DNA of 53,307 nt, the filler included, from Sphacelaria rigidula (Eukaryota), in assembly GCA_964200075.2 (NCBI GenBank). It is 4 parts of 4 records of this genome, joined end to end, with 100 filler letters (N's around TTAATTAATTAA, not from the genome) between each part and the next. Parts side by side here need not be neighbours in the genome. Positions count along the whole stretch, not along the records: positions 1 to 13,252 come from CAXNAA020003024.1; 3 more parts are not named here. One strand, given 5' to 3'. Below, piece by piece: positions 5,726-53,307 of the stretch. The position numbers and the translations under genes were made by a program. Each line of letters starts with the position of its first letter. The stretch's first letter is position 1. The notes beneath the pieces were generated by a model. It was given only the letters and a program-made list of their open reading frames with translations. It was not told where the DNA came from and made no database searches.

Positions 5726-7440
5726 CGGATGCCCGCGCTCAACACACACGCGCACACACCACATACACCGCAGTACAGAAGGATGGTGAAACAAACTCAA
5801 CAAACGCGGCGAAAAAGCGTACGAGACAGGAGGAATGAACACACCTACCTCAGAGGCGTACAACGACGATCCTACGCAAAGCATACAGACCACATGTTAC
5901 TACACCTACAAACTGTGGATGAGATTCGGTCGGTCGGTCTCGAAACGCAACCTACATGCTTCTCTTGAAAAAAGCAAACGCTTGACGCCGAAATCCGGTA
6001 CATTGATGGCAGTACACCTGGGGTCCTGGTCAGGAAGCTCACATCTGGCCTCATACGAGAAACAGAAAATAGACAATTAGACATGTGTTTGCGCACACTC
6101 TCCATGGGTACGTCACTAAGGGGTCCCGCGTCACGCAAGCTCGGCAGGCTGAAGGCGACGACCACAGGCCAAGGACACGATGACATCTGTAAGACACGGG
6201 GTTTGAAAGATTTGAACGACAAGCCAAAAAAATGATGAAAACTCAAAAAGTTAGTTTGTTTTGGCTTGTAGTAAAGGCTTGCACGAATCAAACGGTGCGC
6301 TTTCTTGTGACAATATATGTATATCTAAATACATTTCAAACATCGAAAAATATAAGCAGCCGATCTGTGAACAAAAACCCCTCCATGCCGTGGAAAAAAG
6401 CAAAACCTCACTTTTGCTGATCTGTCTGCGTCGGTATCTACGAGCAAGAGAGGCCGCTCACCGTGAGCAAGGGTTCCACGCCTGCCGGGCGCTTCTTTGC
6501 CGGCTTTCCTTCATTCCTTCCGTTCAGGGGCGCTTCAACACCCCCACCTTGTAAGCAAAAACGATTCAAACAAATACGCAATATGGGTGTCCTTTTCGAA
6601 ACATGGGAAAACAAAGGCGAAAAACAAAAGGAGTGTTTTCACTGCATCTGCCGTGTTCTCCATTTTATTTTGTCGTACTTTCAACCTCTTCCCTTCCTCG
6701 GGATGAGTCTGTCGTCTCAAGGGATCAACCCATCTTTCCCCGGTACTCGTCCTCCCCCCGTCGCGGCGGCGGGTGCAGGGTGAGGCGGGGATCGAGGTCG
6801 ATTGTCGTTAACAGGCGATGATGAATGTGGTGATCACACACCGTCTTGTCCCGCCCGCTGCCCCCCACGGGGTAAAATCCGTCGCCTATCTTTCTTCTTC
6901 CCTGTCTTTCTCTCCATCTCGAACATCTCGTTCGACTTGGAGAGAGGTGGGGGCGGGGGAGGCTGAACGGCCACGTTGGCATCCCCCTATGCGGTTGGCG
7001 TCGGTTAGCAACGACGCCGTAAAGCACGCCACTCACTGAGTAAGCTAGGCAACCAGGTTACCGATTCGTTTTGCGCGCTTGCGTTTTTTTTTTTTTGCGG
7101 TGACCATGATGGTAGTCGAGCTAGATCATGCTGTGCGGCGTGAGAGAACCTTAACTCCGTACAAGGGGATAATCGTACTACGTAGTACTTACATGGTGAG
7201 ACACCCATGAGGCAGTGTATAAGCCGCGGCTGCCTCTGGAAGTGGCGATACCAGAAAATACAGCAAGTTATTGTCGGCTGTCATCCACATGCAAGATAAT
7301 CAGTACGCTTCGGGCCGTACAACCTTGGCAGGATGCAGATCACCGGTCATGCGACTCGCCGAACACACCACGNNNNNNNNNNTCACGGGTGATGCTCCTC
7401 GCTGAAGACACCACGGCGGTTCGCGCTTGGTGATTGAGTG

Positions 7441-7545
7441 CGAGCCTGGTCCAGCAAAAACCCGGCGTGCTCCGTCTCAGCTTGTAGGGATGCGAGGCCA
7501 AAGGTCTCATGACTACGGCATGCACGATCATGATTACACCCCCAC
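7441..7545 (+). repeat. Short LINE-3'-like repeat (G/C-tract family), opposite orientation to the copies at 47290, 48699 and 53262
   Basis: Reverse complement reads 'gggggtgtaatcatgatcgtgcatgccgtagtcatgagacctttggcctcgcatccctacaagctgagacggagcacgccgggtttttgctggaccaggctcg', matching 48699-48797. Confidence 0.8.
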
Positions 7546-7659
7546 CGGTACACGCCTTGTATTTTGGTCTCGCAGATTAGGTCAGCACTCCCGCACTGCG
7601 TCTACTATTCGTTTAACGCTCATGACGATGGGAATCAGATAACTCGAGTAAAAAGACAA

Positions 7660-7738
7660 CGCATCGGGATTCGAACCCTCGTTCTCTCCCCCCTAACGGT
7701 GACAGTCAGACCATTTTAATTTACACCACCGGGCGCGG
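7660..7738 (-). mobile_element. Solo tRNA-derived SINE head (Pol III A/B boxes), same family as the foldback arms
   Basis: Reverse complement 'cccggtggtgtaa...atggtctgactgtcaccgttagggggagagaacgagggttcgaatcccg'; B box GGTTCGAATCC. Confidence 0.7.
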
Positions 7739-9078: not shown

Positions 9079-9252
9079 TATTGATTGATTGATTGATTGA
9101 TTATCTCACATTAGCTGATTGCAACAATCCAGCCCGTGGTCAGGAGCAGCAAAAATAGAACAGGATAATAAAAAATAAATAACAAAAAATAAAAAAGGAA
9201 CAGAAAACGACAGAAGCAACGGCCTCAGAAAGGAAAGAAAGGGGGCAGTGAT

Positions 9253-9292
<40 letters not shown>

Positions 9293-9365
9293 ACAACAAA
9301 AATAATGACAAACATAAACACAAACACAAGCACAAGCATGAACAACAACAACAAAAAAGATGATG
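9079..9365 (-). mobile_element. Retroposon 3' fragment with (AATC)n tail and (GTT)n-rich body
   Basis: 'gattgattgattatctcacattagctgattgcaacaatccagcccgtggtcagg...' recurs at 12738 and 39447. The terminal motif is related to the 5630-5725 family. Confidence 0.8.
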
Positions 9366-9744
9366 CAATGACTTCACTTGCGCTCGTGAAATGCCACTAT
9401 ACCCTAAAGTGGTGAAAAATCACGAGGTGGACCTCTTTCTAGCCATTCTCCATAATATGTCGACACGACGATTAGTCTCGTCTAATGACCACCCAAGTGC
9501 GTCCGTTTGCTGAATCGGCATCATTTTATTGCTGCCAGATTCAGATATACATTTGCATACGAGCTGGGTCAGCCAAGGCTCTGTCGCCACAGCCCACAGG
9601 CCAAGTGCGGCTCAATTTTTCGAATTCCGGGGTGAAATGTTGACAGGAAAGAATCAACACTTAGGCCTACCGTGCCAAAGTTGTCAACGTCATTATTTTT
9701 CCCTAACTTTGAGATTTTGATTTTTTTTCTTTAGCTATTTCTTA

Positions 9745-11519
9745 CACCCTGGACAATAGACGGGATCTATTGCGATAGCAATATAATCTGCTGCAGTAGA
9801 TGCCAATATTGTCGTCCGTAATGGTCATCGATCAGCAAGTTTATTTTTCTACTGCCGTTGGCAATGTCTATCGATAGACCAGTTTCCTACACTCCTGTCT
9901 GGGCAGCAGTCTGCTATGGCCCTACACCGGAATCTATTGCGGCCGACCAAAATCCATCGACCGATAGCTTTCCAAATCTTTTGATGACGGCAATGGCTAT
10001 CGATAGACCGCGTGCCAAATCTATCGATGACGACGATGGCTATTGACAGGTTGTATACCAAATCTATTGATGACGGCAACAGCTATTGATAGAGTGCGTA
10101 TAAATCTATGCATGGCGGGAATGAATATCTATAGATACATAGCAGAATCAACTCTAGTGTATAATGCCTACCGACAGATTTGCTCCGTCGTCTATTGCCA
10201 CACCTACATCGTAACATACTACGTATAGAGCATATCCTACTCCGTCAAGGTAGAGTAGAGAAGCCGTAGGTGGACATGCAGTGGGTGCATAACGATACTA
10301 CTTGTGAATATATGACATCACGTTTCTACAAGTTTGGAACGCTTGTATTTGATAGGAAATTCGCAACATGTGTATGTTGTTGGTGTGGTGTTGGTATTTA
10401 TGGTTGTCCCTCTGATGGACATGAGCGCTCGCAGTACTTTTGTGTGTGGGTGATATGTGCTTATACCCTTGACAAAAGACTGTGTAATAGAGCATTGGCG
10501 CTGCAATAGCCCCGAAAATTCGACTGTTCATGTTCATTGTCTGTCATAATCGACTGGCAGCAAGGTCTATCGATGGCTATTGTAGGCGACAATAGATTCG
10601 GGACAGGGGACATGATGTATCATTGCCGTGATAATGGAGAGCCCCAGTTGTCTTTCGATACATTTTTTTTGTTGCAATAGGCTGTGAGTTGTGGCCACCA
10701 ATGTTTTATGGCCAATCACAATAGGATCTACCACGCTGCCACCAACACATATTGTTGGTCACAATAGGATACCAATTGCGCCCACCAATGTCTACCGCTG
10801 GTTACAATGCAATTCGAATCGCGGCCACCAATATCTATTGCTGACCACAAAGGTAGCTGGATGACGTCGATCACTAGCGCTATATGTTCACATTTTTCGA
10901 TTTATGTTTGCGCCTTATTCCACAGAAGCTATGGCCAGCTATCGCCTTAGGTCGTTGCGTGTTCATGTGTAAGGGGTTGCCGTTGATATCATGAGACCAC
11001 TGCAGTGAGCAATCTATTTTTCAAAACCTATTGTTGGCGTCACTGGCTGTCGATAGGTGCTCCCGAGAAAAATCGATTGTTGACGGCAATGCCCATATTG
11101 GTAGATACCAAAAAATGAATTGTTGGCGGCAGAGGCTACCGATAGACGGCTCACCGAATCTATTGATGGCGGTGATAGGTATAGATGGATAACTCACTTG
11201 ATCTATTGATGACGGCAATGACTATCGATGGATGGCTCACCGAACCTATTGATGACAGCAATGACTATGGGTATGTACAACCCAGAATCTATTGCGGTAC
11301 ACGATGCCCATCGATCGATGGCGAGTGATATTTATCTATTGCAATTGCCAAAGGCTATCGATCGACTATTGCAACATCTATTGTCCCTTGCAATACATAT
11401 CCATAGATGTGTTTCACCATCTATTGTGTTCGATAATATATATATATATATATCGATAGATTTCCCCCCGTGTCTACTGCTGAAGCAATGAACTATTATT
11501 GTGTCCATTGTCCAGAGTG
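9745..11519. mobile_element. Non-autonomous TIR DNA transposon (CAC- termini, EnSpm/CACTA-like) with ~43-bp subrepeat arrays
   Basis: Left end CACCCTGGACAATAGAC; right end reverse complement CACTCTGGACAATGGAC. Internal ~43-bp tandem units at ~9970-10145, ~10690-10850 and ~11070-11330. It interrupts a hairpin module whose intact copy is at 33720-34025. Superfamily is inferred. Confidence 0.65.
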
Positions 11520-11680
11520 TGCCATTTTTAAATCCCTCAAAGTGAGCGAGAGAAAAAAAAAACGACACCTTTGACGGGGCAGGTCTACGTGCGGTTCCTC
11601 TGGTGCCAGAGGTGTCACTCCGAGATTCGGGAAATCGAGTTGCGCATTGACGTTCTAGTGCTTAGACATGTAAAAAGTGT

Positions 11681-12700
11681 CCCGGTGGTGTAATGGTCAG
11701 ACTGTCATCGTCAGGGCGAAGGGAACGTGGGTTCGATTCCCGCCAGGTGCACTTTGTTTTCTTCGTGGTAAGTGATTACCACCGTCGGAAGCGTGAGGGC
11801 GTCAAGAGAGATGGATGGATCCCTTGATCCCATGGACCCGTCCCGTGGAAGGAGAGAGGTATAGATTGTGACAAAAAGCAGATCGGGTGCCGGTAATGTA
11901 CTACTCCAAGTACAGCACTTACCCGAGTGCCCCGGAAGGGAGAAAGTGCCGGCGATTCTGCTTCGGTGTGACGATGAAATATCTTCACGTTAATGCAGCA
12001 TGACGTTACCCACTCGGTCGGTAGTATCCACATGCACGAGTCCCACACTCCCATCAGGTGCGTTGTACCTTCTGTACTACGCGAAGCACTCCCTTGGTTG
12101 CCACGCCTCCTTTCGGAACAATATTATTGCGAGACCTCTCTGGTGCCGAACCCGGCGCAACATAACATGCAAAAAGAAACGCTTCACTGCAGAGGCTAGT
12201 GCGGGCGATTGTTCCACGTACTACGACAGCTTTGATAAGACGATGAGGGTTCCCACGATAATATTATTCCGAAAGGAGGCGTGGCAGCCAAGGGAGTGTA
12301 ACGTGTAGTACAGAAAGTACAACGCTCCTGGTAGGAGTGTGGGACTCGTGCATGCGGATACCACCGACCCAGTGGGAAACCTCACACTGCGCAGACGTCA
12401 ATATATTCCAGCTTCCCATCGAAGCTATCAAACATGACAGAATCGCGGGCACATTCCTCCTGGCGAATATTTGGGCACGTGCTTTACTTAACCTAGTATA
12501 TTATCGGCACACGATATTTTTTCTCAACATCCCAAACCCCTCGCCTTCCTCGGGACGAGTCGTTTTCTCAAGAGATCAACCCATCTCTCCTCACGTTCTC
12601 ACATTTTCGGCGGTGGAAATGCGGCAAGAAGCGAACCCACATTCTCTGCACCCTGATGGTGATAGTCTGACCATTAGACAACGGTTTCGCCCTATACTTG
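11681..12700. mobile_element. Foldback dimer of tRNA-derived SINE-like arms with inward-pointing Pol III heads (copy 1)
   Basis: Inverted arms at ~11681-12129 and ~12256-12690 with a ~130-bp spacer. Left head TGGTGTAATGG...GGTTCGATTCCC; degenerate head on the minus strand at 12630-12690. Confidence 0.85.
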
Positions 12701-12737
12701 ACCAAGTATATTTCCGCCACACGACCTTTCATGTCGT

Positions 12738-12895
12738 ATTGATTGATTGACTGATTATCTGACATTAGCTGATTGCAACAATCCAGCCCGCGGTCAGGAA
12801 CAAGAAAAAAGAAAGAAAGGAACAGAAAAAGACAGAAGCAACGGCCTCACAAAGGAAAGAAAGGGAGCAGCGATAACAACATAAACACCAACACC

Positions 12896-12941
<46 letters not shown>

Positions 12942-13252
12942 CATAACAAGAGCAAGAACAAACAACAACAGCAATAACAACACAATAACGACAAACAAAC
13001 ACATACACAAACACAAACAACACAAGATGATTATCTCACATTACGTAGCTGATTGCAACACTCCAGCTCGTGATCAGAAAAAAAAAAGAAGAGAAAAATG
13101 AAAAAAAAGTAATAAATAAAATGATAGAACCCAAAGAAGGGGTACAATAGACAAGAAGACAGAGCCAGGCTCGTTTCCGGCGGGGGAGGGGGGGGGGGGG
13201 GGAACCAAGAAAAAAAAAAAAGAAAGGAAAAAGGTGGGAAGACCAACGAGGG
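12738..13252 (-). mobile_element. Retroposon with (AATC)n tail, internally duplicated end motif and C-run 5' part
   Basis: Collinear with 39447-39956; 'ctgattgcaaca.tccagc.cg.g.tcag' occurs twice (12769, 13049). Confidence 0.8.
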
Positions 13253-22455: not shown

Positions 22456-24745
22456 ATTATGTGTACTATTTTTTTGTAATCAACAATCGAATTTTTTGTT
22501 CTAAATGCTGTGATTTTTGGTTGCGGGCCAAATGCGGGAATCCACAAATATAGTGCGGGCATTCTGATATATTGAATTATATTTTCTTGTTTTTTTTTCC
22601 GGCTCAGGACTGGTATGCGACACGAACATATTGTGACAGCGTTATTCGTTTCCGATCACATGGAGGCGGTGTTTGGGAAGGTTACGCCTCAAGATATTCG
22701 GTACCTCGCTTGTTATGGCGCCGAAACTTGAAGGATTCGTAGATTTGTACTATTTATACAGCAAGGTGTCACAGCCACAGCCGTAGCCGCGAAAGGCGCT
22801 GAGGGCCCGTTCTGCATTCAAACGGTGGATACCAGGGATGACGGTACACTCTTTTAGCACTTCATGTCTGATGACGATTGTATTGGGTATGGTAACGGTC
22901 AGGCCCGCAGGCTGCAACGGATCCCGTCAGCCTCATCATTAATCTTCGCCCAGTTAGGGATGAGCGCCCGAAGAAACCCAGCAAATGGGCATTGTTCAGG
23001 CTTCCGTTGTATATTTGAGGGTCCAGGTCTGAAAGTTCTCGGTCCAAGTCGCTCGACAGGTCAGGTTTGAGCTTCTGTCGCGCGACCACTGCGTTCTGCC
23101 ACGGACCCTTGGCGGTGCACCCGGCAGGGGGCAACGCTCCCGTATAGATGGTTGCAATGCTAGCGTATCCAAGTTGCTGACAGCCGGTAAGGTGGTTCAG
23201 TGTTGTTCTTCTAGCGATATCAACTTACAGTGCACTGGGGGGAAGTTTGTACGTGAATATTTTGGCGATTGCCCCACTTACATTTCGCCCACATCTTGCG
23301 GTTTCTTTCACAACCTCACCGCGTTAGATCAAATGTGGAAATGTACCACGCCCTGGGCAAAATATTTCTACAGTCAGTATGTATACGATGCAAAAAAATG
23401 TACTGCTCATAGTATGGAATCTGTTTCCTGCTGTAATTTGCGCAGCACTCGTACTTGAAGTCGGTAGCTGCGCGCATTCCACTTTGGTCGCAGTACAAGC
23501 GTCTGCGTTTATGCTGTGACGAACTGCATGAGACAGCGGGGGATTAATACAGCACAGGGATACGCGACGGATGTGACATTCTGCGATGTGCTATGTCACT
23601 CTGCACCCTGCCGCTGTGCAGTGAGCAGGCAGTACCGCCCAGGGCGTCACTGCTGAGCTTGGTACGCAGAGTCAAACACAGACAGCGATCAGTATTTTCT
23701 ACGTATGTGCATCTGGAGAATCCTGCACCAACTTCACCCTATTCTAGCGTATACAAACATCTTGTCAGTAAAAATCGCTTGCGATATGTGCTGTGACGGA
23801 TCTCGTGCGTGATGCGGCTTTCTCCGCCGTGGGGGGGTGGCCCGTAAAGCCAGTTGTTGATGCTGACAGTGCCCACCCCTCTTCCCACGATGGCCTTCTC
23901 TCGGAGCAGAAGACAATTTGAAACTGCGGAACATGAGTCTGTCTACCAGAGCCTACACCTTTCCAGACGTATGCCTCCATATCATCGAAAAGGAATGAAT
24001 AACACTGGTTGCTCCGGCCAATGCGTGATTCGCATGGAGGTCAGGCGCCTAGACAATGCGCATTTCGTGTCTGATGATGCTGAAATTTCGAGTCCATCTC
24101 AGTTGGTGCCAGCAGTACAGTGAGATGTCGAAACCACAGTTTCCGTGGCGCAAGGTGCCGTGGGCGCTGTGTGGGTTGAACACGGTATTACTAGCATGGC
24201 GCTCTTTCTGTTGTTCAGCACCCATTAGACACATATGTAAATGTATACACTTGAAGGTACGATATCATACCGGCGTGGAAGCAGCAATATATCCTGCCAG
24301 CAGTATCCTAGAACTTGGTCCGCTCATGGATCAACGCTCGGAGCAACATAGTATCAAGCACCCTTTAGGCTCCATTGTACATCTGAGTGTACTGGGCTCA
24401 ACCTTACCGATTCAGCTCTCGCGACAGCTCGACGTTAAGCTCCTCTGGCGCGAACAGTGGATTCTACGAAGGACCCCTGCACAGCCAACCACCACACAAG
24501 GGAGCAAAGTCCCCTTACAGGCATCACTAGATATTTGACAGTGGGCATGATGAAAGTCTGACAATCATGGATGTGCTTGCTTTTGTATTCTTCTCCAAGT
24601 ATCAGGGGAGGGCAGGGTTTGCACGTGATTTTTTGGTGGTCGAGCATCTTCCACTTCGCCTTGCTCTTGCGGAGTATTTTACCATCTATCTGGGGCCGTT
24701 TATTATGGCCATCACAAATCTCCACACATGGGACAGATTATCTCC

Positions 24746-25160
24746 CTTTAGCTTGAGCTAGCTCTTTCTTAGCGTAGCTCCCTACGGAACTATGAGAGCT
24801 TCATGGGGTACGCATGTTTGCCCCGGGTGAGCTATGAGAGTAACGTGAACTAGGCATGTTTATCCCAGGTGAGCTCATCAGCGCATGTTGGCCCTGGGTG
24901 GGCTGTAAGAGCTGTATGAACTACGCATGTTTGTCCTGGGTGAGTTACCAACCCGTAGCTCACCAGCGCATGTTGACCCTGGGTGAGCTATTGGAGTTAC
25001 ATGAGCTACGTATGTTTGCCCTAGGTAAAGTACCAACCCGTAGCTCATCAGCGCAAGTTCGCCTTGGGTGAGCTATGAGAGCTACATGAGCGACGCGTGT
25101 TTGCCCTGGATGAGCGATGAGGGCTACGTGAGCTGCGCATGTTTGCCCTGGACGAGCTAA
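24746..25160 (+). repeat. Minisatellite array 1 (~42-bp period, constant core plus two spacer types)
   Basis: About 9 copies of core CGCATGTTTGCCCTGGGTGAGCTA. Confidence 0.9.
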
Positions 25161-26094
25161 CAGACGTGCGCACCAGTCACGAAGTAGCAACGTTCCAACG
25201 CCGTGTTGGGTTGGGCATTTCCTACATTTGCGTATTTTGAAAAGGCGCACTCTACGTTCCCAAAACGGGGTAAAGTATTGAGATCGTACTCAATAACACC
25301 AAGATATTTGGCAGACTAATGCGGTCGTACCGAACTTTACACGCAGATGGGTGGACTTTGGAGATCGGGCCATCTCCATGCAAAGTTCGGGAGAGCTCAT
25401 ACCCGGGTATTTACCCTGCTCAACACACCCTTGGAACGTTTGACATTGCAGACAGGCAACCTGCCGGCCACCGCCAGGGTACGGGTATCAACATTCGCTT
25501 TTGTGTTGTGGATGAAATTGAAATACCAGGGGCGCACAAGGCGTTGCCTTTGCGTACAGCTCCTCACTAGTGCCAGTATCTTGTGTGTATGTTCAGCTGG
25601 GAGAAGACACCGTTCATAGTCTACTCCTTCCGCGCAGCAGCAATGATGCATTGCCGTTCCGTTGAAGGTCATGGCGTGTCCCGCCGTCGTTGTGGGTGGC
25701 ATGGCCGTGCATAATCGTTGCCATGTCTTGTCTCTTTGTTTGGAAGTACATTCGTGCTCCATGTACCACTGTACCGCACCGTACCGCAATGCACTGTACC
25801 GTGGTGTTCTGCATTGCAGTGTGCTATGCTGTAAGGTACTGTGCTGTAACTATACTGTTCTGTACTTTCATGTACGGGGTGCAGACATTTTTTCAGGCAT
25901 GGAGGCTGGGGGCTAGGGTGTGTTACTTCGCATGAACATAAAGAACTAGAGAAGAGTGCTATGGAGAAGAAAAAGTGCGATCTGATACGTCCACGTCATT
26001 AATGTTCTTGCGTGGTTCCAACCCTTGTTTGTAATTCTTCGCGTGCGACCGGAAGGCAAAATATGGAAAAGCTCCACACGTCGGACACATCAGC

Positions 26095-26515
26095 TCCCTG
26101 TAGCTCTAGCTAGCTCTTTTTAGCGCAGTTCCCTACTGAGCTATTACAGCTACACGAGCTACGCATAGTTGCTCTGGGTGAGCTATAATAACTATGTCAG
26201 CTACGCGTGTTTGCCTTGAGCGGGCTATGGAGCGTAGGTCATCAGAGCATGTTTGCCCTGGGTGACTTGACAACCCGTAGCCCCATCAGCGCATATTCGC
26301 CCTGGGTGAGCTATTAGGGCTGTGCATGGGCCACGTATGTTTGTCGTAGGTGAGCTACCAACCCGTAGCTCATTAGCACATGTGTACCCTGGGTCACTTA
26401 CCAACTCGTAGCTCATCAGTGCGCGTTTACCTTGGGTGAGGTACGGGGCGTAGCTAATGTGTACATATTTGACTACAAGTGAGCTACAGCCCGCAGATGA
26501 GCTGGCTCACGAGTT
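26095..26515 (+). repeat. Minisatellite array 2, same family and same leader as array 1
   Basis: About 8 cores. Leader 'agctagctctttttagcgcagttccctac' matches 24757-24785. Confidence 0.9.
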
Positions 26516-26704: not shown

Positions 26705-29700
26705 GAAGATTTTAATCCTCCGGGTTCTCATCCTCAATAAAAATCTCCATCCTCAACATAGATGATCGGCTATTTGATGACGATGAATTGAAAGGTATCG
26801 CAAACTGGATGAGGAATAAATATGGTGAACATGACAGCTTTGAACTCAGTTTTCACCCATGAATCATACGTCTCACGACTCGACCGTTCACGCACATGTG
26901 GCCGTTGTGCAGTAGAATGCCACCCACTTGTCGATCGTCCTGACTCTGATTACAAGATGCCTCGACATGGAGGTGCTCAAAATGTCCCGAAATCAATCAA
27001 CTACCGTGTGCTTGAGGTACGAATGGAGATATCGGAATGTGCAACAGTCACGATGTTTGTGCTTTCACCTGGAGAACTTTAAGGTTCATGACGGACAACC
27101 ACAAATGTAGCGTAGCGAAGTGGAGAAAACTGCCGTTCTTGGATCATGACCACCCTCTGTACTGTAGGTGGAAATGTATATTCTGATCACCCACGGGTGA
27201 TGAAGCTTCAAACATCGATTCATGTTTTCACACAAAATGGTGTCACTGTCAAACTTTCTTCTCTGCCGGAAGATTCCGACAATCTGTTACTCAGAGCTGT
27301 GATCGCCCTTGTTTTTCGACAAGTTATGGAGCAGAGGACGATAAATACTGTGCTCTACGGTACATGAGACCTATATTTTCTACCTGAAGTCAAATTCTGT
27401 CATTCGGATGGATAAATATATCGTTTGGTTGTCGAGTACGTGATGTACTTCGGGTTCGCTTCTCTGGAACCCGTTCATACGATACACGGCGAACAATTAA
27501 TCCGTGGAAATGCTAACAAAGTTGAGTTGAGGTGGTGGATAAACGTGTAGGGTGCTGTATTCCAGTTACAGGTGACGTAAGTTTCATCAGTATATATTAT
27601 TGTATATTGCCTCTTGTTCCATATGTCTGGGTGGTTGGGATTGTACGCACGGGCTGTTGACGGTGTCCAAGCTCATGCCGTTACTGGCTGCCTCCTCGGG
27701 GCGTTGTTTGAGTTGAAATCCATTGATTTATGTGGCAGGCTGCCATTCTTTCCGGCGGCCGAACGAACGAAAATTCGTCAGCCCGAGATTGGCTTGTATT
27801 CGCTGCTATTCGTACAAAACGTCAAGGAAATGAGGAGCGCGGATAAGCGGCGGAATGACAAAAAGAGGGAGAAGAGCTCTTGATACTGCGTCGCTCGTAG
27901 TGCGACATTAATTAAATGCGCAGTTCCCCGGTCATTTCGTTTGTCAGATTTGAGTTTAGTTATTTATTGGTTGTTGCACTTTAACTGACCCCCCAGTCCA
28001 GAGCCCTCCACTTTGGTGCATATTTCGCCACTGCGGTTCATCAGACACGACTCTTTGGTTCATTTTCACTTTGGTGTGCGGCACGACTGTAGTGCACTGT
28101 GACCAACCCAAGTTGTGGCAAATAGTGCACATGTCATATGTTATTGATATATTTATAGTATTCTGCAAGAGACGGGCGTGCTCGACCCTCCTATCCGAGT
28201 GGACAAATTTACCCTCCGACGGCCAGGGTAGGGCATGTGTTGAGTCGGCATCATTTTCAATTGGTGGTTGAATGAACGATGCACGTGACCCACAGTTGCT
28301 GTCACGTGTTGATTGTTTGATTGCTAAGGTCTGTCATTCGGTCACATCTTTTTTCGGTGGAAGATGATGCCGAGTCGATGACATGCCCCGGCAGCCAGAG
28401 GGTCGAGACGCGAGATTAGAGAACGCCATGTCATTCATTCATTTATTTGTCGCACTTCGAACCCCTCCCCTTCCTCAGAACGAGCCCGTGGTCTCAAGGG
28501 ATCAACCCATCTCTGCCCCGGTACCTACTGATACGTGGATAGAGTGCTTGGATTGTTTGCACGAATAAAAGCGAGTGATTCATACGACAACGGAGATTAT
28601 TTCTCCCTTCCCACCAGTGAAAACGACATGGACCACGTGTGGATGTTCCCCACCTACGACTCAGGGCATGAATCAAGGTTACATATTTCCCACTTGCCAT
28701 TCGTGCGGTGTGAACCTTATCGGTATTTTCCCCACCAGTTATTAGTACAAGAATCGTGATTCGTACATACTTTGTACTCTAAATTTGTGTAGCCATCCCT
28801 AATCCTAATTTTGAGACGCCGAAGGACTGAGTATTGCAGGGTTTGGGGCTACCTGGAGCAAGGGTACGATAGTCGTACCTCTAGCCGAAACCTTGACCGC
28901 AATTTCGGGTTAGGGTTAGGCAAACAAAACGAAAAGACCGCGGGAGCAGACTGCGGCTCCGCTATCCCAGAAACATACTCCTTGGGCATGAGGTCTCACC
29001 CACGAACCCCACGGAAGCGAAGCACGAACACTGCTGGAGTGCAACATGGAGAATGTGTACGATTTCTGCCTTTGAGAACATGACGTGAGTCGCAAATGGA
29101 AGTGTTCTGACGAGACTTGATGCGATGCGCGAGTGGTGATAGTCATGATCTAACCCGCGATACCAAAGTGTCAGGTATACACCGGGTAGACAGGATTGCT
29201 GATATCATGATACAATAGTCCAATGGCGGGGCACATTTCATCCGCGCGCAAGAAGTGGTCGTTGCTGTAATGATGCCTGTTGTTGAGTGGTGATTAGCGG
29301 TGCGTTTGCCTTGTCCCCGTTTGCATGATCTCTTCTCTTCGCTCAGGCGTCATCCCCTCGGAGCTCGGTCGTCTAGGCCGTCTTCAAAAGCTGTTGCTGA
29401 ACTATAACAACCTGTCAGGCAAGTAGAATTCCAGGGAGTGATGCATGCAGCAAAGGATGAGTCGTTTCTCCTGACTTGTGTTGTGATGAGCTCCTTCAGC
29501 CTCCGAATAAATGTCAATTTTCTTCTTACTGCTGTCGACACTACACTCCTCGGAGATGACAGTCATTGTGTAACATGTGCGTCGATTCACCCTATATCTG
29601 TCGAGTGCGTTAGTTCTGCTCGGTCGTACCAGAGCGAGTCGTCCCTGTTGCGTGCGCGTTTTCATGTGACCACAGCGATATACTTCCGTTGCATGGGCGT

Positions 29701-32524: not shown

Positions 32525-33690
32525 TTGAGTACAGAGAAAAACGGTGGTCTGATGGTCAGACTGTTACCGTCAGGGTGCAGAGAACAAGGGTTCGGTTTAG
32601 GTCAGACACTTTTTTTGCCCTTCTTCGAAATGTAGGATTTCCATCGGCGTAAACGTGAGTACGTTAGGCGGAAAAATGAATTGATCTCTTGAGAACATGA
32701 GACCATTAGACAACGGACTGGTCTCGAGTAGGGGGGTGATTTGGGGTGTGAAGAAAAGGAATTCGTTTGCCAATAGAGAGTAAAAACAACAAAAGGTTTT
32801 ATGCCGTAATATACTGTGTTAACTAAAAAAGCACGTGCCTAAACATTCGCCAGAAGGAATATGCCTGCGATTCTGTCGCGTATGATCGCTATGTTGGGGC
32901 GGTAAAATATCTTAGACTCGTGGGCAGCGTGACGTTACCCGCTGGGTCGGCGGTCTCCGCATGCGCGAGTCCCGCACTCCTACCCGGTGCGTTGTACTTT
33001 CTGTACTACACGTAGCACTCGCTTGGCTGCTAGTACTCTCTTCGGAACAAAATTATTGTCGGAACGTCATCGTGCATCAAAGCTGTCGTGGTACGTGGAC
33101 AAATCGCCCGTACTACCCTCTGCAGTGAATCATTGTTGTTTGCAATTCACGTCAGTATTTTGCGCAGGGTTCGGCACCAGAAAGGTCCCGATATAGTACT
33201 GTTCCGAAAAAAGGCGTGGTAGCTAAGGAGTGCTCCGTGTAGTATAGAAAGTACAAGGCACCTGATACGAGTGTGGGACTCGTGCATGCGGATACCGCCG
33301 ACCCAGAGGGTAATCTCACGCTGCGCATACGTCCAAGATGTTTCATGGTGCCATCATAGCTGTCATACGTTGCAGAATCGCCGGCACTTCCTGTCAAATA
33401 ATATTCGAGCACGTCCTGTACTCTATGTGGTACACTCTCTGCACACGATTTGTTTTTCTCACACTTCGTCGGTACACGACCCCTTTTTTTTATTTCACCC
33501 TACACCCCTTCCCTTCCTAGAGACGAGTGAGTCCGTTGTCTCAAGGGATTAACCCATCGTTTCATGATGTCCTCACCCTTCCGACGATGTAATATATTTC
33601 CGGAAGAAAATAAAGTGCGTTGGGTGGGAATCGAACCCACATTCTCTTCACCCTCACGGTGGCAGTCCGACCATTGCACCACCGGGGGAC
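32525..33690. mobile_element. Foldback dimer of tRNA-derived SINE-like arms (copy 2, reverse orientation to copy 1)
   Basis: Arms at ~32541-33058 and ~33191-33689. Spacer 33059-33190 matches the reverse complement of 12130-12255. Intact B box on the minus strand at ~33625-33637. Confidence 0.85.
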
Positions 33691-33719
33691 TTTATTCGTG
33701 CAAAAACATTTGAACGATG

Positions 33720-33800
33720 CGTGCCTCAATTTTTCGAATGTCGGGGTGAAATATTGACGAAAGAGAAATCGCACTCGGGCCGACCCTGCCCCACCTTTGG

Positions 33801-33835
<35 letters not shown>

Positions 33836-34025
33836 TTGCTTACTTTGAGGGATTTGAATCGCCCAAAGTTAGTGTTGGACTGAAAGGATAGGAAGCTGAG
33901 GGAGTGATGCGGTGGGCCCAAGACTTGTTCCTCTGGTGTCAACCGTTCACCCCGAGATTCGAATACTTGTGCCGCGCGTAGCCTGTGGACTGTTGCGACA
34001 GAGCTTTGGCCGGCCCAGCTCGTAT
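33720..34025. repeat. Imperfect hairpin module attached to the foldback dimer
   Basis: 'ttcgaatgtcggggtgaaatattgac' and 'gtcaaccgttcaccccgagattcgaa' are inverted. Homologous to 9555-9720 plus 11522-11650. Confidence 0.7.
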
Positions 34026-37000
34026 TTCCCGTGTCTGGGCTATCCTTCCACGTGTCTGGGCTACGCGTACCTGGGTTGCAACGCTGGAAACAATTCCTTA
34101 GAAATGATTCGTACGGCACGAATCAACTACACTAAAATCAATTAATCCACAGACGACTTATTAGTTCGTCCAACCCTAAAAACGTTCACCTACAATTACT
34201 TTCGTCCCCGGTTACTGTAGTTGCCAATAACGAACCTGGCAACGACCAACATGTCGAGGATGCAACTCTGCATCGTTTTCAAAAGAGGAATATTTGAGTT
34301 TTGCTACAACCTTCGTCAATCATGCTTCGACACCCGAGCTGTCGATGTTCTGGGCGAAAGTATCTTGGACGACTCGGAAGGAGCGGTTGGATGTGCACCC
34401 AGGGTCACGGGTCGTGATATGTACAAGCACAGCTCTCACGCTAGCTCACGTGTGAAGGCGAACGTCACAAAATGTGGTACACTGACGTCGATCACATTGG
34501 AAGGGAGTTATCACGTTTTCCGTGGGTGCACCGCCAAACTTGAAGCAACGGTCAGCTAATCACGTAGGTTGGAAGGCACGAGAGCGTTTCGGCGTGCGCG
34601 TGTAGTTATACTGTATTGTCCTACACATAACGGTGACTGTGATTGGTTTGCATCTACTCCGCTGACGTCTTGTGTGCGCAGCTTAGTGCACGTATAATAC
34701 TCTTACATCCCACGACGACTGGCCCATCGGTTGACATGTCTCATTTTCGTCGGATTTGAAACAACCAAGTCGTGTTTGGAGGCACATGCAACCGACAGCA
34801 GGAGTGGTTGAAACCCAGTTTTGATGCGCGTGTTCGCTGTCCGCATCGTACCCATGTTCAGTCACACAATAAACCCCTTTCCCTCTCTTCCTCGGGACGG
34901 GTCCGTAGAGTAAGCGAATCAAACGATCTCTCCCTGGTGCACGCTGCATGTTGTTGCAGTCATGTTTTTGAGTGAATCGAGCAGTTGTAAAAAATGCTTG
35001 AAAGCGTTTCGCAGACGGTAAAATCATGAACACCGCATATGCCATGATGCCGGTTTGGTGACTTCATGCAGATAATAAGTGGCCATCCCGAAGATCAGTG
35101 TCCTCGATTTTCTTGAAATTGTGTTGCCTGGCCCTTTGTTGTGCGGATGATACGTGACCGTCCCGAACATCAGTGTCGTCACTTTTCTTCAATTTGGGTT
35201 GCCTAGCCCTCAAATTTGGACGCGGAACTTGTTGGAATCCGTTATTCACGGCGGAGACTGCGTCTCTTGTCAGTTGCAAATTGCGTACATGTACTTCCTT
35301 CTTTGTACAGTCCTTCTCGCCCTCGTTTACGATTATTGCACAGGTATCAAGTTTTGAGGAGAAAACGGGGAGGTTGTAGACGTCACTCGCCGGGGCAAAA
35401 TATCGCTCTTCAATTATTGAAAATTTGCACGGTTGGAAATCTCTGGTGACACTATTGCGATGACCAAGAGTGCATGCGCTTTTATCCGCACAACATATAT
35501 GTATGTATGTAAGAGTTTCGACAACTCGTTTTTTCCGTAAGTTCGACTTTTGTCAGGCTTGTAACAAGTGAACGTACTCTTGGTCGTGGCGAAAACGTCG
35601 CCGGAAATGTTCATAAGTGTTGGAACTTTCCATCATCGAAGGGTGATGGCCTTGACGAGTGCATCCCCCCTATAACTTGATGGCACCGCCCAGTATCATT
35701 CACATTTATCGGTGCCGCCGTCATGAAAAATGGTTGTGACACGCATTACCCTGCACCGACCATCATCGGCACACGAGCAGTCAGGGTGATGGGTATCTAT
35801 TACTGACGAGGAAACGTACTGGTGGCACAAATCCTTCGCCAAGAAACAATACTCCCGCATTAACGGATCAACGTGGATAAACCCTTCGACCGGGGGGGTC
35901 GATCTCCTCTTGAAGTGGCAATTTTGCTCGAGGAATGAAGACGAGGCCTAGGAGGCGGCGCATACAGCGCTCGCTAGTGCAATTCAATTTGGGTCGTGTG
36001 TTTATAAGGCTAACAAATAGGAGAAAGCATAGCCTGATCTCCGCATTCTTCATTTCCATCGTATATTCAGTCGTTCAGTCAGTAGTCATAGCACGGAGGG
36101 TTGGACTGATTTCCTCGTCAGTCTGCATGTATTTCAAACAGAAAAAAAGGGAAATAAGAGCAAGGGAAAAAAAAGTAAAATTGCGTTGTGTGTGGTGCGG
36201 TGGGGTTCGGGGGTGTTTTTTTTAGTTGTTTCGTTTTCGGTTTTCGGCTCAAGAGGACATAATAATTCCAGATGAACCAGGTGGCATGTGTCGGCTCTTC
36301 ATACGAAATTCAGTACTGTCATTCCTCGCGCGTCTTGAGGCTAATTGGCAAATTGGATACATCGTGTGCCCACGTCCGTAGTGGTGTCCGTAGTGTGTGA
36401 TACTGTCTACAAGCGCCGGCTACATTGGTCGCGGGCTGTCCTTTTTCCGTCCACATGGTTGAGCACGTGCGTGACATGCTGCTCTCGATCAAAGGGCTGT
36501 TTTGAAGGCACCATGGAGGTTCCTCAGTAAACGCAACATTTACGGGTTCAAATCTTGACTCCTTAGACAGTGAGCCTCGCCTCGGAATAATTTCACAGGC
36601 TGACGGTGCGGAGACATCCGGGGGTTCGTGGGCGGAGGGGTGGTTTCTAGGGCGAGGGGGAGTCTATCCGCAGAGCAGCAGGGGCTCACCCAGTCAACCG
36701 TGTGTGTTCGGAAGTTTCCCGTGGAAGATTCTAAGCCAGGAACATGGCCGGACAGGCGCGGAATGGCCATTCTGACTAATCACGGAATGAGCACGTAGTT
36801 CCCCTACACGTAGAGTACTTCGCTGACTAGCAGCCTCTTATTTTGGTCATGCCAATTCGGCCATAAATCACATGGGCACACATAACGTGTCTTGTACTCT
36901 GCCTGAGGTCTGTGCCGCCTGTCTGACGCCTCATGTGTTGACAGCATTGCTTTACAGTCTGTAGTGTTGTCGTGGAACACTGAGCAGATGCACCGGCAGC

Positions 37001-39446: not shown

Positions 39447-39956
39447 GATTGATTGATTGATTATCTAACTTTATCTGATTGCAACAATCCAGCCCGTGGT
39501 CAGGAACAGCAATAATAGAACAGAATGATAAAATAGCAAAAAGATAAAGAAAGGAACAGAAAACGACAGAAGCAACGGCCTCAGAAGGGAAAGGAAGGGG
39601 GCAACAATAACAACAAAAAACACGACTGCCACCACCACCACCACCATCATCAACAACAACAACAACAACAACATTAACAACAACAACAACAAACAACAGC
39701 AATAACAACAAAATGACGAAAAACACAAAGGCAAACACAAGCACGAAAATCAACAAAAAAAGATGATGATCGCGCATCACGTAACTGATTGCAACACTCC
39801 AGCTCGTGATCAGAAGCAAAAAGGAGATAAATGAGAAAAATGAAAGGAGAATGAAAGAAAACAAAAGAAAAGAACAACAAAATAATAAAACGTAAAAAAA
39901 TAATACAATAGACAAGAAAGCAGAGCCAGGCTCGTTCCGGCGGAGGGGAGGGGGGG
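39447..39956 (-). mobile_element. Retroposon with (AATC)n tail (same family as 9079 and 12738)
   Basis: Collinear with 12738-13200, including 'agagccaggctcgtt(t)ccggcgg' and the G-run. Confidence 0.8.
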
Positions 39957-40400: not shown

Positions 40401-43400
40401 GGGGCGGTTTGTCTCGAAAATACGAAAGAGCCGCTGCCAGGTTTGCCCGCGGAGCAGTCCAATACGCCCGCGAGCGTTCGGGCCTCGCGTGTCCGCAGCA
40501 CGTTACTTCTGCTCGAAACGTTGCTGGACCGTCTCATGGAGATCGATGACGGTGCTGTTGTTACGAAGGTGAGCAATGTTGGAAATCCTACCATGTACAA
40601 CTTGTTTGGTCACCCCAGTACGCGAAGAAACGTTTTTTTACGGAACAAGATACGTTCTTCAACATCCCAGGGCAAGGACTGAGTTCACAGTGTTTGTTTC
40701 CGATGCCATTGCCGTAACAACGCCCGGAGAAGTGTTTTCAACACGTATCTTTTCACATGATCCGGACTCCCAACTGCGGTCGGACTCACCACGCCTAGTC
40801 AGACAATAACACATCACATCGCAGTATGGCACGCCATGATTCGTTAAAGATTCAATAATACGTATTTCGTCGAGCACCCATTCATTATCTTGACGTGTAT
40901 GGCACCGTTGGATATTCAATCAAAAATACACTTGAATTATACATCATTTTTTTACCCATCAATTTCGAACCCGCGAACGATACCAAACCGCGCTTGATTT
41001 CCAACACGGAGCAATGATTGCGCTAACCGATAACCCTCGCCATGGTTGGACGGACATCTCGGAATCACTGAACACAAGCGCGGTTGACGTCGTGAACGTC
41101 ATGTTGCTGCGGATTGTGTCCTTGCCTAGTATAGAGGTTGTTGCTGATCCCTCCAGCGGGAATCCCCCATTTGTGCCACAGCATAAAAGAAAATCGAGGG
41201 ATTGATCGACATTGAGTATCCCCCAACATACAAGGTATCCTGCAGTATCAGGCAGTGGCTCTATCTCGAAAGGTAAAGCGTCTACCCGAAGCTGTGATGG
41301 ACACAATTTCGACGTAGTAGGAAGCCTAGTATTTGGGAAGAGCATCCGAGACCCGCTACAGGAGAACCTCAAGTGTAGCCTACCGAGCAACATGCTCTCG
41401 TCGTTGCTAAACCAATGTTGAGCCCTCGTTTGTGCTGTTCACCACGCTACTTTGTGCCGCATTTCTGTTGGATATATCGTGGGTGCAGAAACAACCAGAA
41501 GACAGCAAGAACGCAAATAGATCCAGGCAAGCCGTCAACGATAGGGGAAGGGTGTAATGTGAGTGGCCCCGTAGAGCTGCTCACCCGAGGATGAAGTTTC
41601 AGTATCCCTGTGCTAGCTTACCGCATATGGACGTGGGCCCGTTCGACATTCAACACGGGATTTTACAAATTGGGGATGGATCTTTTATCGGGGATGAAAA
41701 CCCGGAGAATTAAAATCTTCGTATCCATACCAAAGCTTCGAAGTATGCTTCCATTTCTTTACTTGCTGGTAGCTATTGACAACAGCTACTACACGCCACA
41801 AAAATTTGGATTTCGATAACCGAAATTTCGAGGTCCTAGGTGAAGATCCGATTTGGGGGGATTTGAGATGTCCGATCGGACGCCAAAATTGTTTTTTCAC
41901 CTAGGACCCCGATATTTCGGTAATCGAAATCCAAATTTGTATTACTTGTAGTAATTGCCAATGGGTACCAGCAAGTGAAGAAATTGAACCATATTTCGAA
42001 GATTTGGTATGAATACGAAGACTTTAATTCTCCGGGTTATCATCCCCAATAAAAGGTCCATCATCACTTTGAAAAATCGCGTGTTATTTTATCCTTGGGG
42101 CTATTATGTTTATACACTAACATGGTGGGTGCATCTTACCAAACGTGTCGAAAACCTGCTGGTTATGGCAATCGTTTCCGAGTCTTTGGGAAAAGCCGTA
42201 GTTGCAACCTGCAAGTTTTGTGCGAGTCGCGGTTCCCTTGGGTCTTGTACAATGGCGAGAAAACTGCGGTGACAACGTGGTACTGCGTGAGACGTGGTGA
42301 TACAGAGGCCTTGGTGGAGGAGAGTGAGGATAGCTGTTTTTTGAGGCGAAGAAAATGCGTCGTTCTGTAATCCTGACTACATGAGTGATGCTTCTCCCTT
42401 ACGTTCAACGGCTGAGTAGTTCTCCCGCCAATGTCCGAAAAGCTGGTGGAATGGCAGCGCTCGTAGCCTCGGTGAAATGGAGGAGAAGAATCAAGATCGG
42501 GAGCAAAGAAGAGGTTGGGGTGACTGAACCGGAGACCTCCATAGGTACGCCAAACACTCGCCCGTCCGTCGTGGCTTTGTGCCGAGCTTCGCTGGCTCCT
42601 GCAGCATTGAAGACGTGTCTCGGTACTGTCGCACAAACGACACGGTGTTGTTGAAAGCGCCGATGTGAATGCGCCAAGTGTCGATGGCCGACGGTCTTGA
42701 TGATGTCAACTGGAGACCAGCGGTCTTTATGCTATCATATGGAGACGAGCAGTCTTCACGACGTCACATTTTTGGTAAAGCAATCAGAAAAGCCGCTCTC
42801 AACCGGTGTGACCTGTGTTTGATGGTTGGGGCAGTTTTCAATAACCTCTCAGTCGAAATGCGCAGTCGTTCGTTCTCACATTCCAATAGCCCTTGAAGGA
42901 CCAACGTTCTCTCGGCGTTGCAGTCATTATACTGTACAACAACACACCGGCAGGTGAGGCGGGGGAGGGGGGGATCCAGACGGGTGCCAAGGCCACCAAT
43001 GCATTGAAGTTATTCGCACAACAACGCACGGCTGTTACATAACATGCACGGGGGAACGTTGACCTTACACCACGTGTACATAGTAGCACGAAGCGGTGTA
43101 AACCAGGGATACGTGCCGTACAATACAATCAATCCGATGCGTTGAGGGTGTTGCATGCATGTGAAAAGAAATTTGAAAGCGAAATAGCTGAGAGCTGACT
43201 GCTACAGAACTGTATAGTTTTTTGTAACGCTCACCTCAAAATGTACGAATGATCCAGGTCTGTATTTGTTGTTGCCTATGTCGCCGTATCTTGGTCCAGT
43301 ACGTGTTGTCGTCCCATCTATTCTGGACGCCGGTCTACACCTTTCGGTATATATGGGCACACCCCCAGCCGGGGTCACTCACATAGGAGGAAGGTCAACA

Positions 43401-48343: not shown

Positions 48344-48419
<76 letters not shown>

Positions 48420-52848: not shown

Positions 52849-53307
52849 GTGTGTTTGCTGTGAAGGAAACTTCGTAGACGGTGAGATTTTGCTCCCGGGT
52901 CGGCGACTTCCTTTTCTGTTGACTTTGATTTTCCGGGCCGCGTGATGATCGAGTAAACTTTCAATTTGCCACGCCGCGTCATGCTCGCGTGTACGTAGTC
53001 AACAACGCACACTATCTGTTGTCTGCGAGAGTAGAAGCGCAGGTCGAGCGGGGTGAACCTGTCCATGTTCGTCTGTCCATGAGTTGCAACACACATATTA
53101 CATGCAAGTGCTTGGACGATTTGATGAAATGTAGAACGTCCTCAACTAATCCCCGATGGACCCAGCCGTGGCTACAAGACAGACGTACTGACGGTAAACG
53201 AAGCGAAAATGCTCGCTAGAGAAAGGGAAAGGGTGTGGGTGTATAGGGGGGGGAGGGGCGTGTGTACTCATGATCTCGCATGCCATAGTCATAACACCAT
53301 TGACCTC

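What the first reader, a model, noticed from the sequence alone, without database searches (positions are those of the whole stretch)
11681..12700. Fixed tail-to-tail dimer of tRNA-headed arms with convergent Pol III promoters, spreading as one unit
Seen: a ~1-kb palindrome with ~440-bp inverted arms, each starting at its outer end with a tRNA-like A/B-box head pointing inward, around an asymmetric ~130-bp spacer. A second copy lies on a different contig piece (32525-33690, reversed). The spacer and junctions match. Arm-specific variants are shared between loci: left arms have 'agtgccggcgattctgc' and an intact GGTTCGATTCCC, while right arms have 'attcgccag.aggaat.tgcc.gcgattctgtc' and 'gggtgcagagaa'. 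So the dimer formed once and was then copied, rather than arising from two chance SINE insertions. Inference: transcription from either end would give a long hairpin or dsRNA able to feed siRNAs against the dispersed related fragments (6680-6745, 7660-7738, 28455-28525, 34875-34935). Established: Ectocarpus essentially lacks 5mC and its TEs are associated with small RNAs.
Basis: partly seen in the sequence, partly recalled or inferred. Interest (0 to 1): 0.75.

Follow-up and report, generated by a model that had tools for sequence, protein, structure and literature searches.

The report
Old palindrome capped by two SINEs
This is a real but decayed, multi-copy mirror-image repeat whose ends are copies of a short tRNA-derived mobile element; it was copied around the genome long ago as part of a larger block, and its sequence gives little support for it being a working source of silencing RNAs.

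Summary
The palindrome and its second copy are real and share spacer and junctions. Their flanks are unrelated, and laid contigs show a third centre, so this is not a two-copy segmental duplication. Each arm is a ~200-bp tRNA-headed SINE-like element (A/B box, T-run, body, A-rich tail) joined to ~260 bp of unrelated non-coding sequence. The SINE also occurs alone in the window. The shared unit is ~1.5 kb and includes a second small foldback; in copy A a very abundant 1.8-kb TIR element interrupts it. Copies are only 70-84% alike. The promoters are not convergent as they stand: both right-hand B boxes are broken. Both intact left heads have a T4 run within ~20 nt of the B box. Only one of four inward readings reaches the second arm without crossing a run of five or more T. 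Arms group by side in the heads but not in the core. Best reading: a fossil composite foldback repeat carrying a fixed nested SINE, copied as DNA. A hairpin/siRNA role is untested and unlikely. The organism was not confirmed as Ectocarpus.

The parts
9557..9716 (-). Module U, outer arm (U2) of a small foldback; 9557 is the sharp left boundary of homology between copies A and B
   Evidence: 92/116 identical to 33910-34025; flanks beyond are unrelated
9744..11521 (.). Very abundant 1.8-kb element with terminal inverted repeats and 43-bp internal repeats, inserted at the centre of module U in copy A only
   Evidence: loose ends at 9744 and 11521 in 118 and 130 contigs of X1; inverted ends; tandem repeats
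11531..11655 (+). Module U, inner arm (U1), lacking the outer terminus; abuts the left SINE head
   Evidence: 83/118 identical to B
11681..11878 (+). Copy A left SINE-like unit: A box 11686-11696, intact B box 11730-11740, T3-G-T4 run 11753-11760, body, A-rich tail
11879..12140 (+). Copy A left inner arm (non-SINE: segments Y, X and core)
   Evidence: no free copy of this part elsewhere in the window
12141..12248 (+). Copy A spacer; 12192-12246 is a degenerate third copy of arm segment X in left-arm orientation
12249..12520 (-). Copy A right inner arm (non-SINE)
12517..12684 (-). Copy A right SINE-like unit; A box and B box degenerate, T-run region deleted
12692..12729 (+). 38-bp direct repeat of 12482-12519, flanking the right SINE like a long target-site duplication
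   Evidence: 30/38 identical, 0 of 300 shuffles; not significant for the other three arms or for the free copy
32542..32759 (+). Copy B right SINE-like unit; B box broken, T7 run at 32610-32616
32791..33065 (+). Copy B right inner arm (non-SINE)
33066..33184 (-). Copy B spacer with the same degenerate X copy
33185..33454 (-). Copy B left inner arm (non-SINE); T6 run near its inner end
33476..33684 (-). Copy B left SINE-like unit; intact A and B boxes (B box 33627-33637), T4 run behind, A8 tail
33715..34025 (.). Copy B module U, uninterrupted foldback centred near 33856, with (TA)15 in the inner arm; 34025 is the shared boundary
7616..7738 (-). Free SINE copy, 5' half (head, intact B box, T5, part of body)
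   Evidence: profile positions 1-112, E 2e-17
6664..6765 (-). 3' half of the same free SINE copy, about 850 bp away, ending in an A-rich tail with no inner-arm sequence after it
   Evidence: profile positions 123-193, E 1e-9
28443..28577 (-). 5'-truncated free SINE copy with A-rich tail
   Evidence: profile positions 68-200, E 2.5e-14
34861..34939 (-). 5'-truncated, more diverged free SINE copy
   Evidence: profile positions 118-194, E 1e-4

Best explanation
A fossil composite repeat built in steps. (1) A ~200-bp tRNA-derived SINE-like retroposon inserted into the end of an unrelated ~350-bp non-coding element that had its own internal inverted repeat, leaving a ~38-bp direct repeat (shown at one arm; order inferred). 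(2) The SINE-bearing element was duplicated tail-to-tail once, with the junction inside that inverted repeat, which explains why half of the spacer is a leftover arm segment (inferred). (3) The dimer became joined to a second small foldback (U), and the ~1.5-kb block was copied as DNA to at least three centres, probably tens, by a transposase in trans or as cargo of a larger non-autonomous element (multi-copy state shown; enzyme not identified). (4) The copies then decayed. If Pol III still fires, it does so only from the left heads and mostly stops after ~90-100 nt, giving a short SINE-head RNA and not a 1-kb hairpin (inferred from sequence). Any long dsRNA would be a by-product of passing Pol II transcription.
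For: The SINE part occurs alone at three loci (four fragments) with a fixed 3' end (profile 193-200) and variable 5' ends; the inner-arm part does not occur alone in the window. Contig record 7 (=15 in X3) covers half the spacer plus the right inner arm and stops at 12522, at the SINE tail junction. 38-bp direct repeat around the A-right SINE. All seven modules are 70-84% identical between A and B, and homology ends at U's terminus (305 and 400 of 500 shuffles reach the flank scores). Third centre: record 6/14 spans 11937-12500 with 77 differences and 26 gaps, whereas B has 107 and 29 there. No excess of within-locus arm identity: AL-AR 0.76, BL-BR 0.66, AL-BL 0.73, AR-BR 0.76. Strict B box in 2 of 4 heads. 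T4, T4 and T7 follow three heads, and only A read from the left reaches arm two before a run of five or more T. Precedent: brown-algal DNA transposons keep moving with fixed nested insertions (PMC12477816, section 5).
Against: No terminal inverted repeat or target-site duplication could be fixed for the whole 1.5-kb block, and its right end differs between A and B, so the transposition step is unproven. Heads differ more by side than cores do (5/84 vs 1/184 columns, Fisher p=0.013), which one duplication explains only with later homogenising of the inner arms. The long direct repeat is significant at 1 of 4 arms. Pol III can read through T4/T5 in human cells (PMC3141230, passages), and terminator rules for this lineage are unknown to me. 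Only two full copies could be read; the other copies are known from one cut table.
Confidence: 0.6

Rival explanations
1. Two separate SINE copies inserted (or one was copied across by conversion) at the same site in both arms of a foldback/MITE that was already palindromic; the doubly capped element then transposed.
For: Side-specific differences sit in the heads (5 side, 0 locus, 1 cross) and not in the core (1/4/1), Fisher p=0.013. Left and right heads have different 5' leaders. Record 6 shows a centre that was laid only from 11937.
Against: The SINE tail abuts the same point of segment Y in all four arms, apart from a 33-nt insertion in each B arm. Two independent hits would need strong target-site preference. 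Sites are few.
Confidence: 0.17
2. One reading: a functional dimer with convergent Pol III promoters that makes long hairpin or dsRNA and feeds siRNAs against the dispersed SINE family.
For: A full-length transcript would fold well (-565 kcal/mol), with three helices of 21 bp or more in A, one of them (26 bp) in the heads. Five of 16 arm-versus-fragment pairs hold a 21-mer with at most 2 mismatches. A read from the left meets only T4 before position 837. Ectocarpus TEs carry 21-nt sRNAs and it lacks cytosine methylation (PMC12477816). Window CpG observed/expected is 0.99.
Against: Both right B boxes are broken. T-runs lie behind 3 of 4 heads, and 3 of 4 inward readings hit five or more T before the second arm. 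No excess complementarity within a locus. B's helices of 21 bp or more lie in the core, which the dispersed fragments lack. Longest exact arm-to-fragment match is 15 nt.
Confidence: 0.08
3. A non-autonomous Penelope-like (Chlamys-type) insertion: partial tandem plus inverted truncated copy with a 30-40 bp tail, made in one retrotransposition event.
For: PLEs form inverted copies, partial tandems and a 30-40 bp extension at one end (PMC8557442, passages) and occur in Ectocarpus. Here there is an inverted copy, a partial repeat in the spacer and a 38-bp repeat at one end.
Against: The 38-bp repeats flank the SINE part exactly, as a TSD would. No hammerhead core on either strand of A or B and no Rfam hammerhead hit, although some PLE clades lack one. 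Separate PLE insertions would not be expected to share one spacer at three loci (inference).
Confidence: 0.1
4. One chance inverted duplication that was later copied only by old segmental duplication.
For: No transposon termini or TSD were defined for the block.
Against: Homology stops at module U's terminus in both copies, and the flanks score like shuffles. A third centre and further partial copies exist.
Confidence: 0.05

Closest known systems
Brown-algal non-autonomous DNA transposons with fixed nested insertions (e.g. EnSpm-N1_Ec32 with palindromic subtermini and a truncated RTEX-N1; unknown7-N1_Ec32, 1051 bp with internal inverted repeats; PMC12477816, section 5 and annotation table)
   Same: Composite non-coding repeat, internal palindromes, a retroposon copy fixed across copies
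   Different: Here the nested retroposon sits in both arms of one long palindrome; no TIR or TSD was defined; sequence identity to those families was not testable because the FASTA supplements could not be read
MER6 MITE carrying V-SINE sequence (PMC6887750, abstract and section 2.4)
   Same: SINE-derived sequence spread as cargo of a DNA-level non-autonomous element
   Different: MER6 holds one SINE body without its tRNA head between Mariner ends; here two whole heads point inward and no parent transposon is known
tRNA-derived SINEs (SINE2)
   Same: tRNA-like head with A and B boxes, short body, A-rich tail, fixed 3' end with 5'-truncated copies
   Different: A T4-T10 run lies directly behind the head, inside the element; the partner LINE is not identified
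Dimeric SINEs such as Alu or Twin (recalled, nothing read)
   Same: Two related Pol III-headed units in one repeat
   Different: Those are head-to-tail and move as one RNA; this is inverted, has 500+ bp of non-SINE sequence between the units and shows no RNA-type ends
Penelope-like element tandem/inverted insertions (PMC8557442, passages)
   Same: Inverted copy, partial repeat, 30-40 bp extension at one end
   Different: No ORF, no hammerhead core; the repeat flanks the SINE; the same junction recurs at several loci

Membership tests
tRNA-derived SINE (outer ~200 bp of each arm) | Internal type 2 Pol III promoter (A and B boxes) in a tRNA-like head | tested here: met
   Both boxes in the two left heads, B box in the free copy; broken in both right heads (consensus patterns recalled). 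Rfam gives only a T-arm-like partial match, 15.3 bits against a cut-off of 47; ARAGORN 0 genes
tRNA-derived SINE (outer ~200 bp of each arm) | Interspersed copies with fixed 3' end, A-rich or simple tail and 5' truncation | tested here: met
   Four free fragments at three loci; the three 3' pieces end at profile 193-200; shared 5' leader with mixed flanks in 12 contigs each of X6 and X7
tRNA-derived SINE (outer ~200 bp of each arm) | Target-site duplication | tested here: inconclusive
   38-bp direct repeat at 1 of 4 arms; none found at the free copy
tRNA-derived SINE (outer ~200 bp of each arm) | No Pol III terminator inside the transcribed body | tested here: not met
   T4, T4, T7 and T5 runs behind 4 of 5 heads; T10 in the loose-end consensus of 14 contigs
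tRNA-derived SINE (outer ~200 bp of each arm) | 3' end shared with a partner LINE | not testable with these tools
   No whole genome held
Dimeric SINE retroposed as one RNA (whole palindrome) | One transcript from a 5' promoter to a 3' tail, with tail and TSD at the dimer ends | tested here: not met
   Tails are internal, T-runs interrupt, no tail at either end of the block
MITE / foldback non-autonomous DNA transposon (whole block) | Long inverted repeats, no coding capacity, several copies with unrelated flanks | tested here: met
   0 Pfam hits for the 3 ORFs inside the dimers
MITE / foldback non-autonomous DNA transposon (whole block) | Terminal inverted repeats at the true ends and a fixed-length TSD | tested here: inconclusive
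   Left end sharp; right end differs between copies; only a 4-6 nt inverted match, not significant
Helitron | 5' TC and 3' CTRR ends, inserted between A and T (recalled) | tested here: not met
   The one sharp end fits neither motif on either strand; Helentron-type ends not tested
Penelope-like element / retrozyme | Hammerhead ribozyme in the repeat (absent in some clades) | tested here: not met
   0 exact cores on 4 strands; no Rfam hit
Hairpin (IR-derived) siRNA locus | Transcript through both arms and 21-nt reads from the stem | not testable with these tools
   No raw-read or small-RNA run was listed; contigs cannot show this

The most novel reading that the evidence does not exclude
A mobile, SINE-capped palindrome family in which some younger genomic copy keeps a working left promoter, reads through the weak T4 (as copy A could) and makes a ~800-nt hairpin whose head-to-head stem supplies 21-nt siRNAs against the abundant free SINE family: a self-spreading silencer in a genome that appears to lack CpG methylation.
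Probability: 0.08. Interest if true: 0.7.

Novelty: new variant of a known kind. Interest (0 to 1): 0.3.

Why it matters
As a fossil composite it mainly adds to repeat annotation. It shows a SINE with recognisable A/B boxes in an alga-associated, apparently unmethylated genome. The curated Ectocarpus table has 0 mentions of tRNA and only 'possible' SINEs (section 5). It also shows SINE promoters spread as cargo of a DNA-level palindrome. If a young copy did make hairpin siRNAs, it would give a concrete, testable source of dsRNA for transposon silencing without 5mC, a mechanism PMC12477816 describes as largely unknown.

Tried and rejected
No whole genome is held, so genome-wide counts, boundaries and trees were not possible. 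Expression: no RNA holder was listed. X6 and X7 are only guessed to be RNA, are contigs, and their summed depths cannot rank parts; none of their 16 listed pieces lies in the dimer, but 22072 pieces were not shown. This says nothing for or against transcription. Summed contig depth in X1 (head bins 8078 and 3223, core bins 1451-2637, spacer bin 989, U2 520-642, against 25-33 for single contigs) is not a copy number by the tool's own note; I use it only as a hint that heads outnumber cores and cores outnumber centres. Collection scans found no relatives: metagenome 1 locus (L001) and viral 0, 2 and 0 loci, all three loci being 18-23 nt chance matches; prokaryote genomes 0 and 0. Earlier findings: none in 4 look-ups. 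Real tRNA or known ncRNA rejected: ARAGORN 0, Rfam gathering 0, the five heads fold no better than shuffles (z -0.83 to 0.40). Coding: 35 of 78 ORFs were scanned; 4 gave only sub-threshold Pfam hits, none in the dimer. Taxon: a search with a dynein-like exon found nothing, so the organism stayed unconfirmed. DIRS-type reading (spacer as internal complementary region) rejected: the spacer repeats an internal arm segment in one orientation only (0 of 8 opposite-strand pairs significant). A 3-bp TSD at the block ends fits B and 2 of 3 letters in A only if the right end is chosen by a 4-nt match; not counted. Literature: searches listed no inverted SINE-capped dimer; the library lacks most subscription papers. 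Searches found nothing on long TSDs of RTE elements, so that link is recalled only.

Full report
Observation. The window is four pieces joined by N-linkers. The palindrome at 11681-12700 is real: self-BLAST gives 70% over 876 nt, and the strand folds at -565 kcal/mol against -302 +/- 53 for 25 other windows of equal length. A second copy (B) lies reversed at 32525-33690 on another piece. Arms are about 436-460 bp and spacers about 108-119 bp.

Each arm has two unrelated parts. A profile of the outer ~200 bp finds the four arms plus four free fragments: 7731-7616 (positions 1-112) and 6739-6673 (123-193), which are complementary halves of one split copy, 28577-28443 (68-200) and 34939-34861 (118-194). 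The three 3' pieces end at the same place, two of them in an A-rich tail. A profile of the inner ~260 bp finds only the four arms and three short pieces inside the dimers. So the outer part behaves as a tRNA-headed SINE and the inner part is a different non-coding repeat. At the right arm of A the SINE is flanked by a 38-bp direct repeat (30/38, 0 of 300 shuffles); this was not significant at the other three arms or at the free copy. In the laid contigs, record 7 (15 in the second run) covers half the spacer and the right inner arm and stops at 12522, at the SINE tail junction. Loose ends at 11681 and 11742 in runs X6 and X7 show a free family with a shared GC-rich leader, mixed flanks and a T10 run behind the head, matching the copy at 7738.

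The spacer is not unique sequence. About half of it is a degenerate third copy of an arm segment, in left-arm orientation (36/46 and 38/48 against the B-left arm, 0 of 200 shuffles; the other six same-strand pairs were weaker, 6 to 160 of 200; none of eight opposite-strand pairs was significant; also found by profile). The inner element therefore had its own inverted repeat, and the dimer junction falls inside it. This step is inferred.

The shared unit is larger than the dimer. A second foldback (U) abuts the left head. In B it is intact (33715-34025). In A it is split by a 1.8-kb element with inverted ends (9744-11521) that has loose ends in 118 and 130 contigs of X1. Homology between A and B ends at the same base on the left (9557/34025), and the flanks on both sides score like shuffles (305, 400 and 424 of 500). 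All seven modules are 70-84% identical between A and B, as expected if the block was copied whole and long ago. Record 6 (14 in X3) spans 11937-12500 with 77 differences and 26 gaps, while B has 107 and 29 there, so it is a third centre. Whether record 6 carries the SINE heads is unknown, as only one piece of it was shown.

Arm relationships. Among 27 informative sites, 13 group by side, 7 by locus and 7 crosswise (p=0.08 against a third); the ML tree joins the right arms (UFBoot 98). The signal is in the heads (5/0/1) and not in the inner core (1/4/1), Fisher p=0.013. Within-locus arm identity (0.76, 0.66) is no higher than same-side identity between loci (0.73, 0.76), so there is no sign that pairing is being maintained. 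One duplication followed by homogenising of the inner arms fits, and so do two SINE insertions into an existing palindrome.

Promoters and terminators. Using recalled consensus patterns, both left heads have A and B boxes, while both right heads fail the strict B box. Three of four heads are followed within about 20 nt by T4, T4 or T7; the fourth has a broken promoter. Reading inward, B-left meets T6 at 479, B-right T7 at 86 and A-right T5 at 526, all before the second arm; only A-left meets just T3-G-T4 until position 837. Human Pol III stops at T4 or more but reads through in part (PMC3141230, passages); I have no data for this lineage. Convergent Pol III transcription is therefore not supported for these copies, and a read-through hairpin stays possible for A only. 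If made, it would have three helices of 21 bp or more, one in the heads; B's lie in the core, which the dispersed fragments lack; exact arm-to-fragment matches are at most 15 nt, though 5 of 16 pairs hold a 21-mer with at most 2 mismatches. Expression could not be tested.

Mechanism. Most likely (0.6): SINE insertion into a small hairpin element, one tail-to-tail duplication, fusion with U, copying of the block as DNA by a transposase in trans or inside a larger element, then decay. Shown: the modules, the shared boundary, three centres, the broken promoters and T-runs. Inferred: the order of events and the mobilising enzyme; no TIR or TSD of the whole block was fixed.

Comparison. It works like brown-algal non-autonomous DNA transposons that keep moving with fixed nested insertions (PMC12477816: I read section 5, passages on sRNA and methylation, and searched one annotation table; the consensus FASTA supplements could not be read and may hold a relative) and like MER6, a MITE that spread SINE sequence (PMC6887750, abstract and section 2.4). 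It shares inverted copies and a 30-40 bp end repeat with Penelope-like insertions (PMC8557442, passages) but has no hammerhead core. It is not a dimeric SINE of the Alu or Twin kind (recalled). Searches listed no description of this arrangement, within a library that lacks most subscription journals. A brown alga is plausible; Ectocarpus was not shown.

Verdict. A real, old, multi-copy composite palindrome with SINE caps; a new variant of a known kind; interest 0.3. The silencer reading is not excluded but has about 0.08 probability.

Noticed in passing
window 7616-7738, 11681-11878 and loose ends at 11681 and 11742: The free SINE family has a T4-T10 run right behind its tRNA-like head yet also has copies that continue into a body and A-rich tail. 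Summed depth hints that heads are several times more common than 3' parts, the reverse of ordinary 5' truncation. This suggests a short terminated form and a read-through form. It may be the more interesting object.
   Followed up: partly
window 9744-11521: Very abundant 1.8-kb non-coding element with ~17-bp inverted ends and 43-bp internal repeats, inserted at the centre of foldback U; no TSD evident; superfamily not assigned.
   Followed up: partly
window 32701-32716 and 12669-12684: A 16-nt insertion in B's right arm matches exactly the reverse complement of the A-box region of A's right head, but only 6-8 nt of the other three heads. It may be a templated insertion from the ancestral right head, or a by-product of a local 8-bp tandem repeat.
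   Followed up: partly
window 12141-12156 and 33184-33169: The spacer begins right after the left core with a 13-nt stretch shared by both copies that resembles a tRNA primer-binding site (recalled, untested). It may equally be the remnant of the inverted X segment.
   Followed up: no
window 41652-42085: Another ~434-bp palindrome (81% arm identity) unrelated to the dimer, with a partial copy at 26705-26783: foldback repeats are common in this genome.
   Followed up: no
window 9084-9357, 12738-13194, 39447-39956: A repeat family starting with (TGAT)n and holding (AAC)n tracts lies on both sides of copy A and in another piece; it may have removed or masked A's right boundary.
   Followed up: no
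window 43755-50049: Three ORFs give sub-threshold hits to dynein heavy-chain or P-loop domains, consistent with exons of one intron-rich dynein gene; a homolog search found nothing.
   Followed up: partly
window 24716-26443: Clusters of 42/43/85-bp tandem repeats in two blocks, like the subterminal repeats of a DNA transposon.
   Followed up: no
window 7441-7546, 47284-47387, 48693-48797, 53255-53307: A further dispersed ~105-bp repeat, one copy of which lies in the sequence that splits the free SINE.
   Followed up: no
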